A DNA stretch of 64,000 bases, taken from the NCBI RefSeq assembly GCF_035594765.1, contig NW_026943821.1, positions 20,367,608 through 20,431,607 on the forward strand, in the 5' to 3' direction. The first letter of the stretch is position 1; the number at the start of each line of letters is the position of its first letter. Under the pieces are notes generated by a model that was not told where the DNA came from, did not search any database, and saw only the letters and a program-made list of their open reading frames with translations. A program made the position numbers and the translations under genes. Shown here piece after piece: positions 1 through 61,104 of the stretch. The DNA comes from Anolis carolinensis. Taxonomy: Eukaryota.

Positions 1-1
1 C

Positions 2-913
2 TAAAGACACCCGCAGGAATCGGTTGAGCTCTTGGAGCCCTCGGATTGATCTGTGTAACCGATCCCTTTGCTCTTCCTGGGGGTCTTTGCCATTGATTTC
101 TGCTGGAGAAGAGACTTCTTGGGAGGAAAGGCCCGGTGTTGGCTGGATGCTGGCGGCGTTTCGGACACAGCAGAGGAACTTCTGGGTTGCAATGGCCACC
201 GGATCCTGTTTGCAGAGAGGGCTGGAGGCTGTATCTTGGAGGCCCTCTTCTTCCGCAAGGGCTTCCTGCAATTCCTTGACCTTCCTCCTTAACCGGTCCC
301 TCTCTTCCTCGTAAACCAAGAGTGTCCCTTTGCAGTGTTGCAGCTCCTCATTCCGGATGCCCAGCTGCTTCTCGAGGGCCGCCTTCCTCTCCCGGCAAAG
401 GGCCACTTCTTGTCTGTAGACGATGCTCTCTGTCGACAGGAAGTCCAGATTCGGCGCAAAAGATTGCTGACTTTGGCAACCCTTTCGGGACCCCACTGGA
501 CTTTCACCAAAGTTCTCAGCCACATTGGGACTTTGCTCTGTTCCGGATCCAGCGCTGGGCCGACGGTTGCGGTGAGAGGAGACCGCGTTCTCGAGGGAGG
601 AGACTGCTTGGAGGGCAGCGAGGAAGAGGTCTGGATGCCTTTTCTCCGGAGGAGGCATCGTCGCTTCCAGGCTCAGAAACGGCACACTGCATCGTGGGAG
701 GCTTGCTGTATATTCAGAGCAGAGATCAGAAAACTCTTCCTCCTCCTGCTCCCTGTCTTTCTCCCGCTCGAGGCGTTGGAGGTGTTGGTGAAGGCGGGAG
801 ACCGTCACCAGCAGTGCTGTGATGCGCTCCTCGCAGCGAAGGGCTTCTCGCTCATCTGGTGGCAAAGCCTTTTCGGGGGATCCTTCTTCATCTCTGGATC
901 CTTCCTGCTCCAT
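2..913 (-). CDS. MCC (mutated in colorectal cancers)/USHBP1-family coiled-coil protein; single long exon, runs off the window start
   Basis: Hand translation from ATG at 913 (acceptor ttttcAG at 920-919) gives 304 codons with no stop: MEQEGSRDEE...LRCEERITALLVTVSRLHQHLQRLEREKDREQEEEEFSDLCSE...HPDLFLAALQAVSSLENAV...RNEELQHCKGTLLVYEEERDRLRRKVKELQEAL...RDRLHRSIRGLQELNRFLRVSL. These blocks are collinear with MCC motifs as I recall them (RYEERITELHSVIAEL, EEDEYSELRSE, EERDRLRRRVRELQ, ERLNSRIEHLKSQNDLLTITL). Confidence 0.8.
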   Translation of the reverse strand, partial: MEQEGSRDEEGSPEKALPPDEREALRCEERITALLVTVSRLHQHLQRLEREKDREQEEEEFSDLCSEYTASLPRCSVPFLSLEATMPPPEKRHPDLFLAALQAVSSLENAVSSHRNRRPSAGSGTEQSPNVAENFGESPVGSRKGCQSQQSFAPNLDFLSTESIVYRQEVALCRERKAALEKQLGIRNEELQHCKGTLLVYEEERDRLRRKVKELQEALAEEEGLQDTASSPLCKQDPVAIATQKFLCCVRNAASIQPTPGLSSQEVSSPAEINGKDPQEEQRDRLHRSIRGLQELNRFLRVSL

Positions 914-1076
914 TCTGTCTGAAAAGTGGCTCCAAAGGCGGACAGCAGCATCAAAACAAGCCAAAGCCCAGCCCTTTGGTTCCTGTTTCTTCCCATAATA
1001 ACAATAATAATGAGAAGCCTTTCCTGTCTTTCCAGAGAGGAAGGAAGCCGGCTCCATCCGCACCAATGCTTTAACC

Positions 1077-1240
1077 CAGGGGTCTCCAAACTTTTTAAAC
1101 GGGGCCAGTTCACAGTCCGTCAGTCCGTTGGAGGGCTGGACTATAGTTGGAAAAACCCTATAAAGAAATTCCTATGCACACTACATATCACTTATTTTGA
1201 AGTAAAAAACAAAAACAAATGGGAACAAATACAGCCTCAA
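1077..1240. mobile_element. hAT-type MITE, 5' part (CAGGGGT terminus)
   Basis: Starts cagggg-tctccaaactttttaaac, the same terminus as the complete copy at 44150-44577. Confidence 0.55.
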
Positions 1241-1524
1241 TGTTAATAATAATCATAATCATAATAAAAATAATAAAGAGGGTGGGAAGAGATCCCTTGG
1301 GCCATTTAGTCCAATCCCCTTCTACTTTTGTGCACCAAAAGCACAAGCAAAGCACCCCTGACAGATGCCACCAAGCCTCAATGTTGTTGGTAATAATCAT
1401 CATCATTATCATCACATAGTCCTAAACGCTTGGGAAGTGTTCAACTTGTGATTTTGTGATACGAAATCCAGCATATATTTCTCGTTTGCTGTGTTATACT
1501 GTGTCTTTGTGTCAATAATAATAA

Positions 1525-2057
1525 TCTATATATATAAAAGAGTGATGGCATCATGGCGACCCACAAAACAACAAAACTACAGGCCCCCCAACCTCGAAAT
1601 TTGACAACACAACCCATCATCCATGCCTCTAGGTTGATACAACAAAAAGAAAAGAAAAATAAAGTCCTAATTAGTGAGAGAGGAATAATTGCTTTTATCC
1701 AATTGCTGCCAGTTTAGAGGGCTAATCTCTGTCCACTTGGTCTCCTAGCAACCAACTCAGCCAAGGGACAGCCAGGGTTCAGTTAGGGGACAGGCAGACT
1801 TAGGCTCCTCCAACTTGGTCTCCTAGCAACCCAATAAAAAATAATAAAGAACACTAAAAAAATTAATACAATAAAATACTATAATAACAGAAAATAACTA
1901 AAAATAATACAAGAAAATAATAAAATATGATAAATAAAATATAACTTACAATAAAATTAATAAAAAATGCAAATAAAGTCAAATAAAAATTACACAACAA
2001 TTTTTAACCAATACCACCACCACTTTGCCACAGCAACGCGTGGCCGGGCATAGCTAG
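1525..2057 (+). mobile_element. Non-autonomous Helitron
   Basis: 5' TC(tatatatataaaagagtgatggc), 3' hairpin gccacagcaacgcgtggc then CTAG; inserted between A and T with no TSD. Same ends as the copies at 23003-25630. Confidence 0.8.
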
Positions 2058-2114
2058 TAATAATAATAATAAGGGTTGGAAGAGACCCCTTGGGCCATTT
2101 AGTCCAACCCCCTT

Positions 2115-2770
2115 CTGGGAGTGTGTCCCTGTTGGTTCTCTTGGACATCTCAGCAGCCTTCGATACTCTATACCCTGCTGAAGTTTGGAGTACGATGGAC
2201 CATGGACAATGGGAATTGCAATACCTTCACTCACTTCCTGAGAACATTGCAATCCCCACCAATGCCTGAACAATACCAAACTTAGCACATAGAGGCCCCA
2301 TGTCCTATTCTACACCTGGGTGCTGTTTGGAGGGGGATGGACCATGGACGATGGGACTTGCAATACCTTCACTGGCTTCCTGAGAGCACTGCAACTCTCA
2401 TCAATGACTGATCAGTACCAAACTTGGTACACAGAGGCCCCATTACCCACTCTACATCCTGGTGTGGTTTGGAAGAGTTTGGACCATGGATGATGGGACT
2501 TGCAGTAGCTTCACTCACTTCCTGAGACCACTGCAACCCCCATCAATGTTTGATCAAGACCAAACTTGACACACGCACTCCCCATGACCTACTATACATC
2601 CTGGCGCTGTTTGGAGTGGGATGGACCATGGATGATGGGACTTGCATATGGGAATTGTACTTCACCTGCACCCATTGAACCCCGCTGACCCTGGACCTAG
2701 ACTAAACTTGGAACACAGGCAAACAATGCCTTTCTCAAATGACCCAGGCACCGCCAGGTCCCCAAGCTAG
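2115..2770 (+). repeat. 142-bp tandem repeat (about 3.5 copies) ending in a hairpin+CTAG; probable second Helitron family
   Basis: ggaccatgga recurs at 2197, 2339, 2481 and 2623; the tract ends gacccaggcaccgccaggtc-cccaagCTAG at 2770. Confidence 0.55.
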
Positions 2771-2889
2771 CTGTTAGGAATGGTGGGAGTTGAAGTTCAA
2801 AACACCTGGAGAGAAGGCCCAAGTTAGCCCATGCCTGTTCTTGAAGGTTAAAAAAAGCTCCACTGGCCCTTTAATTCCAGTGTCCAAGT

Positions 2890-3245
2890 GGTTGCCGGGA
2901 AATGTAGTCCTCCGCCCCTCCTTGTTTGTTCTCCCGCCTCGCTCGCCGCTTTTCCCGCCCCGCCTCTGGCCTTTCCCAGCATGCCTTTCTCCGGCCTTCC
3001 CTCTGACTGGCTGGCGATGAGGGCGGCGCATGCGCAGTACCCAAAACCCGGGCCGGAGCCGCTTCCTCTTAACGCCGCCGCGAAGAGCAGAGCCGGGCGG
3101 CGGAAGAAGCGAAGGCAGCCGAAGCGAAGGGCCGCCAAGGGTTGCCTGCTCGTTCGGTGAGTGCCACGGCTCGCGCGCGTGACGTCAGAGCGGCCGGGGT
3201 GACGTCACTATTTACGTCGGTGACGCGAATAGAAAGCGCGGAAAT
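2890..3245. promoter_or_regulatory. CpG-island promoter of TXLNA, probably bidirectional; includes TXLNA non-coding exon 1 (donor GTGAGT at 3157)
   Basis: CpG-rich. ZNF143/SBS-type motif (reverse of gggaaatgtagtcc, about 2897-2910), GC boxes, NRF1 gcgcatgcgc (about 3026), ETS cggaag, CRE tgacgtca at about 3180 and 3200. Confidence 0.75.
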
Positions 3246-3402
3246 AGTCACTTTTGGGAACTGGTATTTTTAAAAATATATTTTTATTATTTATACTATT
3301 TTTTTAAAAAAATTATCATTCATATTATTCTTTAAAATATTATTATGATTGGGTTGCTATGAGTTTTCCGGGCTGTATGGCCATGTTCCAGAAGCACTCT
3401 CT

Positions 3403-3443
3403 CCTGACGTTTCGCCTGCATCAGTGGCAGGCATCCTCAGAGG
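3403..3443 (-). ncRNA. Minimal type I hammerhead ribozyme (Penelope-associated), copy 1
   Basis: Minus strand reads cct-CUGAGGA-u-gccugc(cacugau)gcaggc-GAAAC-GUC^-agg: intact core, 6-bp stem II, palindromic ACGU stem III. Confidence 0.75.
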
Positions 3444-3609
3444 TTGTGAGGTCTGCTGGGAACTAGGCAAGTGGAGTCGATATATCTGTGGAATGACCAT
3501 GGTGGGAGAAAGAACTCCTGTTCTGTTTGAGGCAAGTGTGAATGTTGCAATCGGCCAGCTTGATTAGCATTGAATTGCCATGTATGGACATGTTCCAGAA
3601 GCATTTTCT

Positions 3610-3650
3610 CCTGACGTTTCGCCTGCATCAGTGGCAGGCATCATCAGAGG
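3610..3650 (-). ncRNA. Minimal type I hammerhead ribozyme, copy 2
   Basis: Minus strand reads cct-CUGAUGA-u-gccugc(cacugau)gcaggc-GAAAC-GUC^-agg. Confidence 0.75.
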
Positions 3651-3699
3651 TTGTGAGGTCTGCTGGGAACTATATATATACAATATAATTTATATTGTG

Positions 3700-3734
<35 letters not shown>

Positions 3735-6700
3735 ATGTATATACACAATATAATTTACAATAATACATAATAATTATAACATATTGTATATACATATAAT
3801 ATTCATATTATATTGTAATACGATATAATACTAATAATACAATATAATAATATTAATTATATATTATATTTTACATGTAATATTACTAATAATATTACAA
3901 TATATTGATACAGTACAATATAGTAATTTATTACCAGTATCGTACTATGCTAGTATAATATTGTATGTAAATTTAATTTGTAAGCTGCTCTGAGTCCCCT
4001 TCGGGGTGAGAAGGGCGGCATATAAATGTAGCTAATAAATAATAAATAAATAATAAACTAGGCAAGTGGGGTCAATATATCTGTGGAATAATGTCCAGGG
4101 TGGGAAAAAGAACTCCTGTTCTGTTTGAGGCAAGTGTGAATGTTGCAATTGGCCAGCTTGATTAGCATTGAATGGCCATGTAGTTTCAAAGCCTGGCTGC
4201 TTCCTGCCTGGGGGGAACAGCACCCAGAAAGCCGGGCAATTCCAGACAGGAAACAAATCAGGGTTAGCTAACACCTTCCAACCAGGGATTCCCCCAGGCA
4301 GGGAGCAGCCAGGCTTTGATGCTGCAATAATAAATAATAAACTTTATTTTTATATCCCGCCCCATCTCCCCAAAGGGACTTGGGGCGGCTCACAACAGGG
4401 ACAAGCCCGAACAACGACACAACATATTTGACAAAACTTAAAATATTTCAACGATACACAAAATAATATAATGGACATTACATTAAAATCCAAGCAGATA
4501 AAATCAGAGTAATTAAAAGCGAACCAACGGGGACAGGTTTCATAAAGTGCTATATCCTGGAAATGAGTAACAGTGATAAAGTGCCGTACGGTTTTATAAA
4601 CATAAAAAAGTATTCTGATGACAACTCTACTGGGCCTATTCATTCAAAAGCGTTCCAGAACAAGGCTATCCACTGCAAGGCTATTCAGTGCTAATCAAGG
4701 TGATTAATTGCAACATTCACACTTGCCTTCAACAGACAAGAGTTCTTTCTCCCACCGTGGACATTCCACAGATATATAAACCCCACTTATCTAGTTCCCA
4801 ACAGACCTCACACCTCTGAGGATGCCTGCCCTAGATGTGGGCAAAATGTCAGGAGAGAATGCTTCTGGAACATGTCCATACAGCCCGGAAAACTCACAGC
4901 AACCCAAAGTATTAATACTGCATTCCTTCTTGCTATAAATGTGTTTTGCACAATACTTTGGGATGTGATTTATAACTGATTGAAACATTATCGACAGCAT
5001 GTATTCTATATATTTACACAACATAAATGTTCTGTTATTAAAATACGCTGTTTAAAATGAATAGAAAGTGAATATGAAAGATAAATGAATTTAGCGTTTA
5101 GACTTGGGTCCAATCACATAATGAATATTCAAATATTTCCTCCCCAAAAATCGGGAAAAAATCCAAATACAGAATATGTCTGGTCCCAAGCATTTCGGAT
5201 AATAATAAATACTCAAACTGTAGCAGTGGAAGGAATAATAATCCTTTCCTTATTCTCCTTTTGTTGGCAGGTGAAGACTCTTTTTATAAATTCAGACCAT
5301 CGTTTCGAACTGAAGACTGTAAGTCTGCCGTTGGGTCAGAAATAAAGTCTGGTTTCACTCTTAAACGGTATATTTTTAATATATATTTAATGCATAAGCC
5401 TCCTTGAGTCTCAGAATAATAATCCTGCAGCACTGTGTGTTGCGGTCCTTCATTACGCATTGTGATGATGCCTTGCAGTTTCGCCTTGTGCAATGGCACC
5501 TAGTTAGTGGCAAGTCTTGCATAATGGTGCCATTTGTGTGGGAATGGTGTACTTAATGCTGGTGTGTGTGTTTATATATATATAAATATGCTACACTCAG
5601 AGGATGATAAATTGCAGCCAATATCTATCAGCAGGGATTATATTTCACTATGTATTGGCTTCTGGGACTAGTCCAACAGACCACAGCTGGCTACAAGAAC
5701 CAAACTTGCAACCAAACTGAGAAGAAGCCAACAACAACAACAATTCCTACCTGCCTCTCCTTACGGCTCGAGGTGGAGCACCAAGCATAGTTAAAATACA
5801 TCATAAAAACATTCACTAAAATGCTTAAACATATTTCTGTAAAATACACATATTATTAAAATGCACTAAACTAATTAAAATTCATAGTAATAATAATAAG
5901 TTGTATTAAAGTTGCCCCAGGTGCAATTCTTAAGGTAGTTTTCAAATAAGGTTCGTTCATCAGAGTCTGGAAATAACCTCAAATATAAAAGTTAAAAACA
6001 ATGTCAAATATTTATAAACCAGCAGAGAGAGAGGTCTGAAGGCTAGTCTTTATGTTTGTTATTTAGTTTTGTTTTAATACATATGTTAAGTGTGTATGTT
6101 GGTGTGTGTTTATTTTTTGTGTTTATGCTTTTGTTTTTCTAGATTCATTGGAATTTTTTTTGCAAAAATGTATAATTTCATAATGTATTTATTCACTTTA
6201 TTACAGTTGTGTTGTGGTTTTCTATCAATAAAAAGTAATAGCAAAATATTATATTGAACTAATAAAAATACTAATAAAATACTGTGGAATGGATGCAATT
6301 TGACACTGTTTGATGTGCCATGGCTTAGTATTATCGGTTCCTGGAGGTGGCACTTTGACAAGATATTATTATTATCGTTGTGATGATGATGTGGCACTTT
6401 GACAAGATATTAATATTATTGTGATGATGATGATGATGATTATGATTATTATTTATTATTGACCTCTACTTGTGACTTCATATATGTTCCTTTTTCATCA
6501 TCATAAAAATGAATTTTTTACTTTACTCTCCTCGTGGCTTCATATAGACTCTCTTCTTCTCGATAATGATGACGATAAATTTATTATTGGCCTCTCCTTG
6601 TGGCTTCACGTATGCTCCCTTCTTATCTATAATTTTTATTCGTGTTCATAATATTATATTTCTTACCTATCTCTCCTCATAGTTTTAACACAATGTAGTT

Positions 6701-7029
6701 AAAAACCTCATCCTATAACATTATATGAAAAGGTATTTCTATGAAGTACATCTATTCAAACACAGGGAACAAAGATTAAAATACATAAACACAGCACATG
6801 AATTTAAAATTCATGGTTAAGAATGGACTGTATTTAGTCTTCTCTGGTCCTCGAATTCCATAGCTGTCAGTTTTTCTGGAAGTTCAAGTGTGTCAAAACT
6901 ACATCATTTCTCCAGTGTCAATGTATCCTGAGTGATGCCCACTGCTCTCTTTCCTTAAAGCCAAGACAGGCTGACTTGTGATTTTCTTTTCCTAGGAACA
7001 GCTGAAAGTGGCTTTGCAGGCCAAGCGCC

Positions 7030-17110
<10,081 letters not shown>

Positions 17111-55994: not shown

Positions 55995-61104
<5,110 letters not shown>

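What the first reader, a model, noticed from the sequence alone, without database searches (positions are those of the whole stretch)
3403..3650. Tandem pair of intact hammerhead ribozymes, 207 nt apart, in TXLNA intron 1
Seen: two minus-strand type I hammerheads with full cores (CUGAGGA and CUGAUGA, perfect 6-bp stem II, GAAAC-GUC^), with predicted cleavage at 3406/3405 and 3613/3612. Known: Penelope-like elements carry such minimal hammerheads, whose palindromic ACGU stem III works as a dimer formed by tandem copies. Inference: antisense transcripts through this region would self-cleave and release a 207-nt monomer that could circularise (retrozyme-like). They could also be cut before reaching the TXLNA promoter and the MCC-like gene on the same strand.
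Basis: partly seen in the sequence, partly recalled or inferred. Interest (0 to 1): 0.7.

Follow-up and report, generated by a model that had tools for sequence, protein, structure and literature searches.

The report
Duplicated anole Poseidon ribozyme stub
Both small self-cutting RNA motifs are really there, but they are leftovers of a known lizard jumping gene with about 14,000 such motifs in this genome; this pair likely arose by a chance local DNA duplication and is likely a silent passenger rather than a gene switch or a source of RNA circles.

Summary
Two minimal type I hammerheads with complete cores lie on the minus strand at 3403-3443 and 3610-3650, with predicted cuts at 3406/3405 and 3613/3612. 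They are the 3' stub of the anole Penelope-like element Poseidon (PAc), whose hammerhead is published and tested (PMC11167929). G000 holds 13,980 exact matches to the motif, and 6 of the first 100 listed sit in short tandem arrays.

The pair is one arm of an ordinary back-to-back insertion (3349-4907). Its junction is unique in the genome, lies off the element's usual end points, and the two units share 11 of 17 rare letters. A later local DNA duplication is therefore likely, not an amplified retrozyme.

Cleavage in vivo is doubtful. The published monomer needed PAc protein. A long antisense transcript would first make the complement of the opposite arm, which is predicted to trap copy 1. The upstream gene probably starts beyond the motifs. 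Neither cleavage nor expression was tested here. The scan noted this family repeatedly elsewhere in this genome. Ordinary.

The parts
3403..3443 (-). Hammerhead copy 1 (minimal type I; C3 at 3440, C17 at 3406; predicted cut 3406/3405); the element's ATG is at 3434
3610..3650 (-). Hammerhead copy 2 (C3 at 3647, C17 at 3613; predicted cut 3613/3612)
3349..3581 (-). Unit 1: Poseidon pseudo-LTR plus the first ~86 nt of the ORF, ending at the family's commonest end point
3578..3581 (-). Junction between unit 2 and unit 1: 4-nt microhomology at +61..+64 of unit 2; unique in the genome
3582..3672 (-). Unit 2, 3' part (carries hammerhead copy 2)
3673..4055 (.). Younger insertion of another repeat (AT-rich) that splits unit 2 from its upstream pseudo-LTR; 5-bp flanking duplication at 3668-3672 and 4056-4060
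   Evidence: (126-nt part is 98% identical to its best other copies)
4056..4217 (-). Unit 2, 5' part, out to the 5'-truncated end of the minus arm
4234..4907 (+). Opposite arm of the same back-to-back Poseidon insertion, interrupted at about 4327-4671 by another repeat; ends at +84 to +86 like unit 1
4816..4850 (+). Damaged hammerhead of the plus arm, sense to the taxilin gene: G12 and C15.2 changed at the two CpG sites
3001..3200 (.). Context: CpG-rich promoter region with a donor-like GT at 3157 (inferred taxilin exon 1; possibly bidirectional)

Best explanation
The two motifs are the hammerhead-bearing end of the anole Penelope-like retrotransposon Poseidon (PAc), likely doubled by a later local 207-bp DNA duplication and likely silent at this locus. 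Order of events (steps 1-3 inferred from sequence): (1) PAc inserted two truncated cDNAs back to back in the taxilin intron, both ending near +85 of the ORF, its usual reverse-transcription start. (2) After the minus arm had gathered about ten private changes, 207 bp of it were duplicated through a 4-nt microhomology, putting two hammerheads in tandem. (3) Younger repeats then inserted into unit 2 and into the plus arm. Chemistry (predicted, untested): if a short antisense RNA covering 3350-3670 is made, the two ACGU palindromes could pair into a shared helix III and give slow cleavage at one or both GUC sites. In the cell this likely happens rarely or never. No PAc protein-binding region is present, a long antisense RNA would carry a ready-made complement of the motifs, and nothing points to selection on this copy.
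For: Family. 13,980 exact motif matches in G000, control 0. The window units match the ends of full-length tandem elements at 81-89%. Their 846-aa ORF starts at the ATG at stem II, has an RT domain (RVT_1 E 2e-13) and a C-terminal GVY..YIG segment. [quoted passage not shown] By eye, the template printed in that paper matches the genomic copies and differs from copy 1 only in loop II, two stem II wobble positions and one position beyond stem I. Layout. 58 of 121 hammerhead-bearing alignments end at +80..89 and 47 at +115..129. 11 back-to-back pairs occur among the first 100 listed matches; this layout is described in PMC8557442 (passages). Local duplication. The junction has 1 match in the genome with 1 mismatch allowed. 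The shared loop and stem variant occurs 3 times in the genome, 2 of them here. Unit 2 shares 11 of 17 rare letters of unit 1; the best other copies share 3 of 7 and 3 of 10, and the opposite arm shares 1 of the 11. The junction is at +61..64, whereas the two other arrays examined join at +82/83 and +86. Silence. Intact motifs are common: 11 of 52 and 30 of 38 copies in two samples. The dimer fold costs 20-28 kcal/mol, against 21.1 +/- 2.0 for 40 shuffled spacers. A 3349-4907 transcript pairs copy 1 with the opposite arm. The monomer needed PAc protein, insertion activity needed the first 172 nt of the ORF (only 86 and 64 here), and no RNA-seq ends were seen at the cut site (PMC11167929). 1 of 9 Xenopus dimers cleaved in vitro (bioRxiv 10.64898/2026.07.22.740005).
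Against: In the 5' half the two units are only 91.9% alike, less than each is to its best other locus (93.3% and 93.5%), so overall identity alone does not show local duplication. One letter at +56 is shared by unit 2 and the opposite arm but not by unit 1. Three of the microhomology's four letters are the family state anyway. Both cores stayed intact through 12 substitutions between the units while only 11 of 52 comparable copies are intact; this is weak, because most losses are at CpG sites and the site lies beside a CpG island. The folding penalty has no positive control: ViennaRNA ignores tertiary contacts, and the natural arrays score even worse (24-30 kcal/mol). The PAc protein requirement was shown only on a monomer RNA, so a cis dimer might not need it. 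The family samples contain some overlapping loci.
Confidence: 0.82

Rival explanations
1. The tandem was made at insertion, when PAc reverse transcriptase jumped template or copied a multimeric or circular RNA, as the family's other short arrays likely were; it is still a passenger.
For: Short same-strand arrays exist in this family: 6 of the first 100 listed matches, in arrays of 220 and 173 nt. Shared rare letters could come from one source RNA. Unit identity in the 5' half is no higher than to other loci.
Against: Those arrays join at +82..86, the reverse-transcription start, and this one at +61..64. The opposite arm of the same insertion has 1 of the 11 shared rare letters. The only other carrier of the loop variant (L035) shares 2 of 7 and 1 of 10 rare letters.
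Confidence: 0.1
2. One reading: an active cis dimer that cuts antisense transcripts from the taxilin intron, releasing a 207-nt RNA that circularises or shielding the promoter.
For: Both cores are intact and all 22 dimer pairs are standard. The sense-strand copy is dead while the antisense copies are intact. Dimers and trimers of minimal hammerheads show low activity in vitro (PMC4209133). Tandem type I hammerheads give circles in other animals (PMC7229834, passages; canonical motifs).
Against: The unit is not amplified. The monomer has no unusual structure. The opposite arm is predicted to trap copy 1. Minus-strand poly(A)-type hexamers lie at 3927 and 3972, just upstream of copy 2. The upstream pseudo-LTR of unit 2 is cut off by an insertion. 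A comparable minus-strand copy at about 60.4 kb has the same two CpG losses as the sense copy, so the dead sense copy needs no selection.
Confidence: 0.05
3. The tandem is an assembly artefact (a falsely duplicated 207 bp).
For: The junction occurs once in G000, and I could not confirm it in independent reads.
Against: The units differ at 12 substitutions and a 3-nt gap, and only unit 2 carries a younger insertion with a flanking duplication. An assembly error would not be expected to give that.
Confidence: 0.02

Closest known systems
Hammerhead of PAc / Poseidon_Ac, Anolis carolinensis (Frangieh et al. 2024, PMC11167929; parts 1-3 of 4 read)
   Same: Same core, extra U, ACGU palindrome, ATG at stem II, cut 26 nt after the start codon, end point near +85.
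   Different: Older, diverged copy (81-89% to full-length young elements), without ORF or the protein-binding region, with a Watson-Crick stem II in place of two G-U pairs, and doubled at 207 nt rather than spaced by a whole element (2,664 nt).
Minimal type I hammerheads of metazoan Penelope-like elements (Cervera and de la Pena 2014, PMC4209133; parts 1-2 of 4 read)
   Same: Extra base between 9 and 10.1, G10.1-C11.1 pair, long stem II, palindromic 15.2-16.2, dual motifs on opposite strands nearby; low activity even as dimers.
   Different: Stem I here is 3 bp (plus a possible 2-3 bp extension), against 4-5 bp reported for Schistosoma; the same-strand pair is 207 nt apart.
Non-LTR retrozymes (Cervera and de la Pena 2020, PMC7229834, passages; Li et al. 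bioRxiv 10.64898/2026.07.22.740005, parts 1-3 of 5 read)
   Same: Short head-to-tail non-coding units with a type I hammerhead in each; derived from a Penelope pseudo-LTR by local amplification, as Li et al. propose; the size lies in the known range.
   Different: Single locus, two units only, unit 2 broken by an insertion, minimal rather than canonical motif, no evidence of expression or circles.

Membership tests
Minimal type I hammerhead (PLE type) | Complete core CUGAnGA / GAAA / UH | tested here: met
   both copies
Minimal type I hammerhead (PLE type) | Extra base after A9, G10.1-C11.1 pair, stem II of 6 bp or more, palindromic 15.2-16.2 | tested here: met
   stem II pair probabilities 0.89-0.94 (copy 2) and 0.65-0.69 (copy 1)
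Minimal type I hammerhead (PLE type) | Self-cleavage as a dimer | not testable with these tools
   All 22 dimer pairs are possible; the fold is not favoured and has no positive control
Rfam hammerhead families | cmscan match | tested here: not met
   none among 7 matches at E<=1 in 1-12000; minimal variants lack helix III, so a miss is unsurprising (inference)
Poseidon_Ac (PAc) Penelope-like element | Homology to the pseudo-LTR/ORF junction of full-length RT elements in the genome | tested here: met
   by-eye match to the template printed in PMC11167929; the Repbase file in the supplement could not be read
Poseidon_Ac (PAc) Penelope-like element | 3' end at one of the two reverse-transcription start sites; back-to-back truncated arms | tested here: met
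   Unit 1 and the plus arm end at +84 to +86; 58 of 121 alignments end at +80..89
Poseidon_Ac (PAc) Penelope-like element | C-terminal GIY-YIG endonuclease in the parent ORF | tested here: inconclusive
   GVY..YIG segment seen by eye; no Pfam, NCBIfam or PDB hit for it
Autonomous PAc copy | Intact ORF at this locus | tested here: not met
   Only 25 and 26 codons follow the two ATGs before a stop
Non-LTR retrozyme | Two or more consecutive units each with a complete hammerhead (working definition of Li et al.) | tested here: met
   unit 2 is interrupted upstream of its motif, and Tandem Repeats Finder did not list the pair
Non-LTR retrozyme | The unit spreads as a family across the genome | tested here: not met
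   Junction: 1 match in G000; only the window covers the whole 299-nt query among 40 scored of 6,920 candidates
Non-LTR retrozyme | Expressed as linear and circular monomers | not testable with these tools
   No raw stranded reads were available; see Tried and rejected
Non-LTR retrozyme | Stable self-paired monomer | tested here: not met
   z -0.20 (folded as a linear strand)

The most novel reading that the evidence does not exclude
A retrozyme caught at birth: a chance 207-bp duplication of a dead Poseidon stub, kept from CpG decay by the neighbouring promoter island, built a cis double hammerhead that no longer needs PAc protein, cuts short antisense RNA from the taxilin intron and yields a 207-nt circle.
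Probability: 0.05. Interest if true: 0.45.

Novelty: already known. Interest (0 to 1): 0.13.

Why it matters
As found, it matters little: it is one doubled copy among about 14,000 of a published and tested ribozyme. Its modest use is as an example of how a short hammerhead tandem can arise from a Penelope end by plain DNA duplication, the first step that Li et al. propose for animal retrozymes. It is also a natural substrate for asking whether the protein dependence of the PAc hammerhead simply reflects a need to bring two copies together. The younger 173- and 220-nt arrays (L033, L032) would serve that test as well.

Tried and rejected
Rfam scan of 1-12000: no hammerhead family. Expression: no RNA holder listed on record (18 of 24 rows hold part of the promoter stretch, none recorded as RNA). 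Contigs of 4 of those 24 runs laid on 3349-3670 were swamped by other family copies; no piece spanned the stretch, and contigs cannot show strand, ends or level. No conclusion follows on transcription, cleavage ends, circles or polymorphism of the duplication. The exon structure was not confirmed by transcripts. GIY-YIG was not recognised by Pfam, NCBIfam or PDB sequence search. The CCDC28B-like exon at about 30.3-30.45 kb gave no Pfam hit; that name is recalled. Lunse et al. (RNA Biol 14:1499) is not held; I know it only through the citation in PMC6765202. Supplement 2 of PMC11167929 gave no text, supplement 3 is a run list, supplement 1 was not opened and the GenBank file is unreadable. The bioRxiv supplements are closed, so I cannot say whether an anole was among its five reptiles. 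A search for intronic antisense hammerheads regulating host genes (five terms) listed 6 papers, none on this by title or abstract start. Rejected: amplified retrozyme (unique junction); special perfection of stem II (the same 3' strand occurs in 4 of 52 sampled copies; it may derive from CpG decay of a variant seen in 3 of 52, an inference); assembly artefact. Orthologous loci in other anoles could not be searched (G000 has no relatives held).

Full report
Observation. The minus strand carries two minimal type I hammerheads, 3403-3443 and 3610-3650. Each has CUGAnGA, an extra U, a Watson-Crick 6-bp stem II, GAA, the palindrome ACGU, C17 and a 3-bp stem I. C17 is at 3406 and 3613, 207 nt apart. 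The motif search gave 3 matches in the window and 0 in 100 shuffles. Rfam found no hammerhead family among 7 matches at E<=1 in 1-12000.

Gene context. Two plus-strand frames near 11-11.8 kb hit Pfam Taxilin (2 of 5 frames scanned). A CpG-rich stretch at 3001-3200 (28 CpG in 200 nt), a donor-like GT at 3157 and an acceptor at 6995 before an ATG at 7030 make 'intron 1' a fair inference, not confirmed by transcripts. The name TXLNA is recalled. A 683-codon minus-strand frame starts at 913 and runs into the upstream neighbour L036, where it hits USHBP1_PDZ-bd (E 1.6e-10). Its likeliest promoter is the CpG island (inference), which lies downstream of both motifs on that strand, so its transcript would not contain them.

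Family. A degenerate 41-letter motif pattern has 13,980 exact matches in G000 (7,020 forward, 6,960 reverse; control 0), about one per 130 kb. A protein query from locus L032 led to 867-codon frames. Four fetched regions hold such frames, whose ends match the window units at 74-90% (81-89% for L062). The ORF (846 aa from its ATG) begins at the ATG at stem II, has an RT domain and a GVY..YIG segment near its end (not recognised by Pfam, NCBIfam or PDB). Frangieh et al. 2024 (PMC11167929; parts 1-3 of 4 read) describe this element, PAc or Poseidon_Ac of the green anole: ORF start at stem II, cut 26 nt after the start codon, internal reverse-transcription starts. The window's cut falls after +29, the same place. 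The template printed in their methods matches the young genomic copies by eye. G000 is thus an anole genome (inferred) and the motifs are PAc ends. They report cleavage of a monomer RNA only with PAc protein, loss on C3G or G8C, no need of cleavage for insertion in vitro, insertion activity requiring the first 172 nt of the ORF, and no RNA-seq ends at the cut site.

Anatomy of the locus. The pair is one arm of a back-to-back insertion. The minus arm runs from about 4217 to 3349, the plus arm from about 4234 to 4907. Both end at +84 to +86 of the ORF. Of 121 hammerhead-bearing alignments in the fetched loci and the window, 58 end at +80..89, 47 at +115..129, 5 run on into the ORF and 11 end elsewhere (some loci overlap, and two ends are locus edges). 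Among the first 100 of the 13,980 matches, 11 back-to-back pairs lie within 1.5 kb and 6 matches sit in two same-strand arrays of 220 and 173 nt (this part of contig C1 is about twice as dense as the genome average). Inverted truncated copies and tails are standard for the class (PMC8557442, passages; PMC4209133, parts 1-2 of 4). The plus arm's hammerhead (4816-4850) has lost G12 and C15.2 at its two CpG sites. A younger repeat (98% to its best copies) splits unit 2 at 3673-4055, and another repeat interrupts the plus arm.

Origin of the tandem. The junction has one match in the genome with one mismatch allowed. It lies at +61..64 on a 4-nt microhomology also present at the start of unit 2, whereas the L032 and L033 arrays join at +82/83 and +86. 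The shared loop and stem variant occurs three times in the genome, twice here. Unit 2 shares 11 of the 17 letters of unit 1 that are rare in the sampled family (6 of 7 against 100 copies; 5 of 10 against 45 copies). The best other copies share 3 of 7 and 3 of 10, and the opposite arm shares 1 of the 11. The units now differ at 12 substitutions and a 3-nt gap. The simplest history is insertion, decay, local DNA duplication, more decay, then a new insertion into unit 2. Against this: the 5' halves are 91.9% alike, less than each is to its best other locus (93.3%, 93.5%), and one letter groups unit 2 with the opposite arm.

Would it cut? All 22 pairs of the double-hammerhead fold are standard, so a dimer is possible on paper. 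In the unconstrained ensemble stem II forms, but stems I and III have probability 0.01 or less. Forcing the dimer costs 20-28 kcal/mol depending on flanks, against 21.1 +/- 2.0 for 40 shuffled spacers and 24-30 for five neighbouring pairs in L032 and L033. This shows no design for dimer folding, but it has no active control and ignores tertiary contacts, so it does not refute activity. A long antisense transcript would make the complement of the plus arm first; folding 3349-4907 pairs copy 1 with 4816-4856, which would remove one partner. Minus-strand poly(A)-type hexamers lie at 3927 and 3972. Only 86 and 64 nt of ORF follow the two motifs. Published activity is low for minimal dimers (PMC4209133; PMC6765202, passages), and 1 of 9 Xenopus dimers cleaved (bioRxiv 10.64898/2026.07.22.740005, parts 1-3 of 5). 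The 207-nt monomer folds like its shuffles. Intact motifs are not rare: 11 of 52 copies in the best-hit loci and 30 of 38 in ORF-linked loci pass the same criteria. Survival of both CpG sites next to a promoter island may reflect low germline methylation (inference). Expression could not be judged (see Tried and rejected).

Comparison and verdict. The locus works, if at all, like a dimer-dependent Penelope hammerhead. It belongs to the PAc family. It meets the loose sequence definition of a non-LTR retrozyme dimer (two consecutive units; such arrays were found in 4 of 5 reptiles by Li et al.) but fails the tests of amplification and monomer structure, and circles (PMC7229834, passages) are untested. 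Earlier notes of this scan reached the same reading for other copies in this genome (I had found the paper and the copy number before that look-up); none exists near this place. The finding is real and ordinary: interest 0.13.

Noticed in passing
L032:1184-1928 and L033:1496-2135 (G000 C1): Young Poseidon arrays of four units (220 nt and 173 nt) joined at the +82..86 reverse-transcription start. In L033 the last unit and the opposite arm share letters that the inner units lack, which hints at two templates or repeated re-priming.
   Followed up: partly
window 2-913 (minus) continuing into L036: A 683-codon uninterrupted frame with a USHBP1/MCC-type PDZ-binding domain, head to head with the taxilin gene; possibly an intronless paralogue or retrogene sharing the CpG island.
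   Followed up: partly
window 30535-30636 (minus) and 60393-60517 (minus): Two more decayed Poseidon-type hammerhead stubs; the first keeps the core but has a disturbed stem II, the second has lost G12 and C15.2.
   Followed up: partly
window 23562-23913: A 149-nt tandem repeat (2.4 copies, 96% matches) that matches the 3' end of the Poseidon element upstream of the hammerhead; another local duplication of this family.
   Followed up: no
window 4188-4317: The weak Rfam mir-39 match is simply the fold-back centre of the back-to-back insertion.
   Followed up: yes
window 2164-2646: A 142-nt tandem repeat (3.4 copies, 80%) between the MCC-like gene and the CpG island.
   Followed up: no
window 30320-30450 (plus): An exon-like frame resembling CCDC28B (name recalled; no Pfam hit), which would fit the known neighbour of TXLNA.
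   Followed up: partly
L062-L065 (G000 C1, C4): Several full-length, uninterrupted 867-codon Poseidon frames in tandem at 2,664-nt spacing; the family looks recently active.
   Followed up: partly
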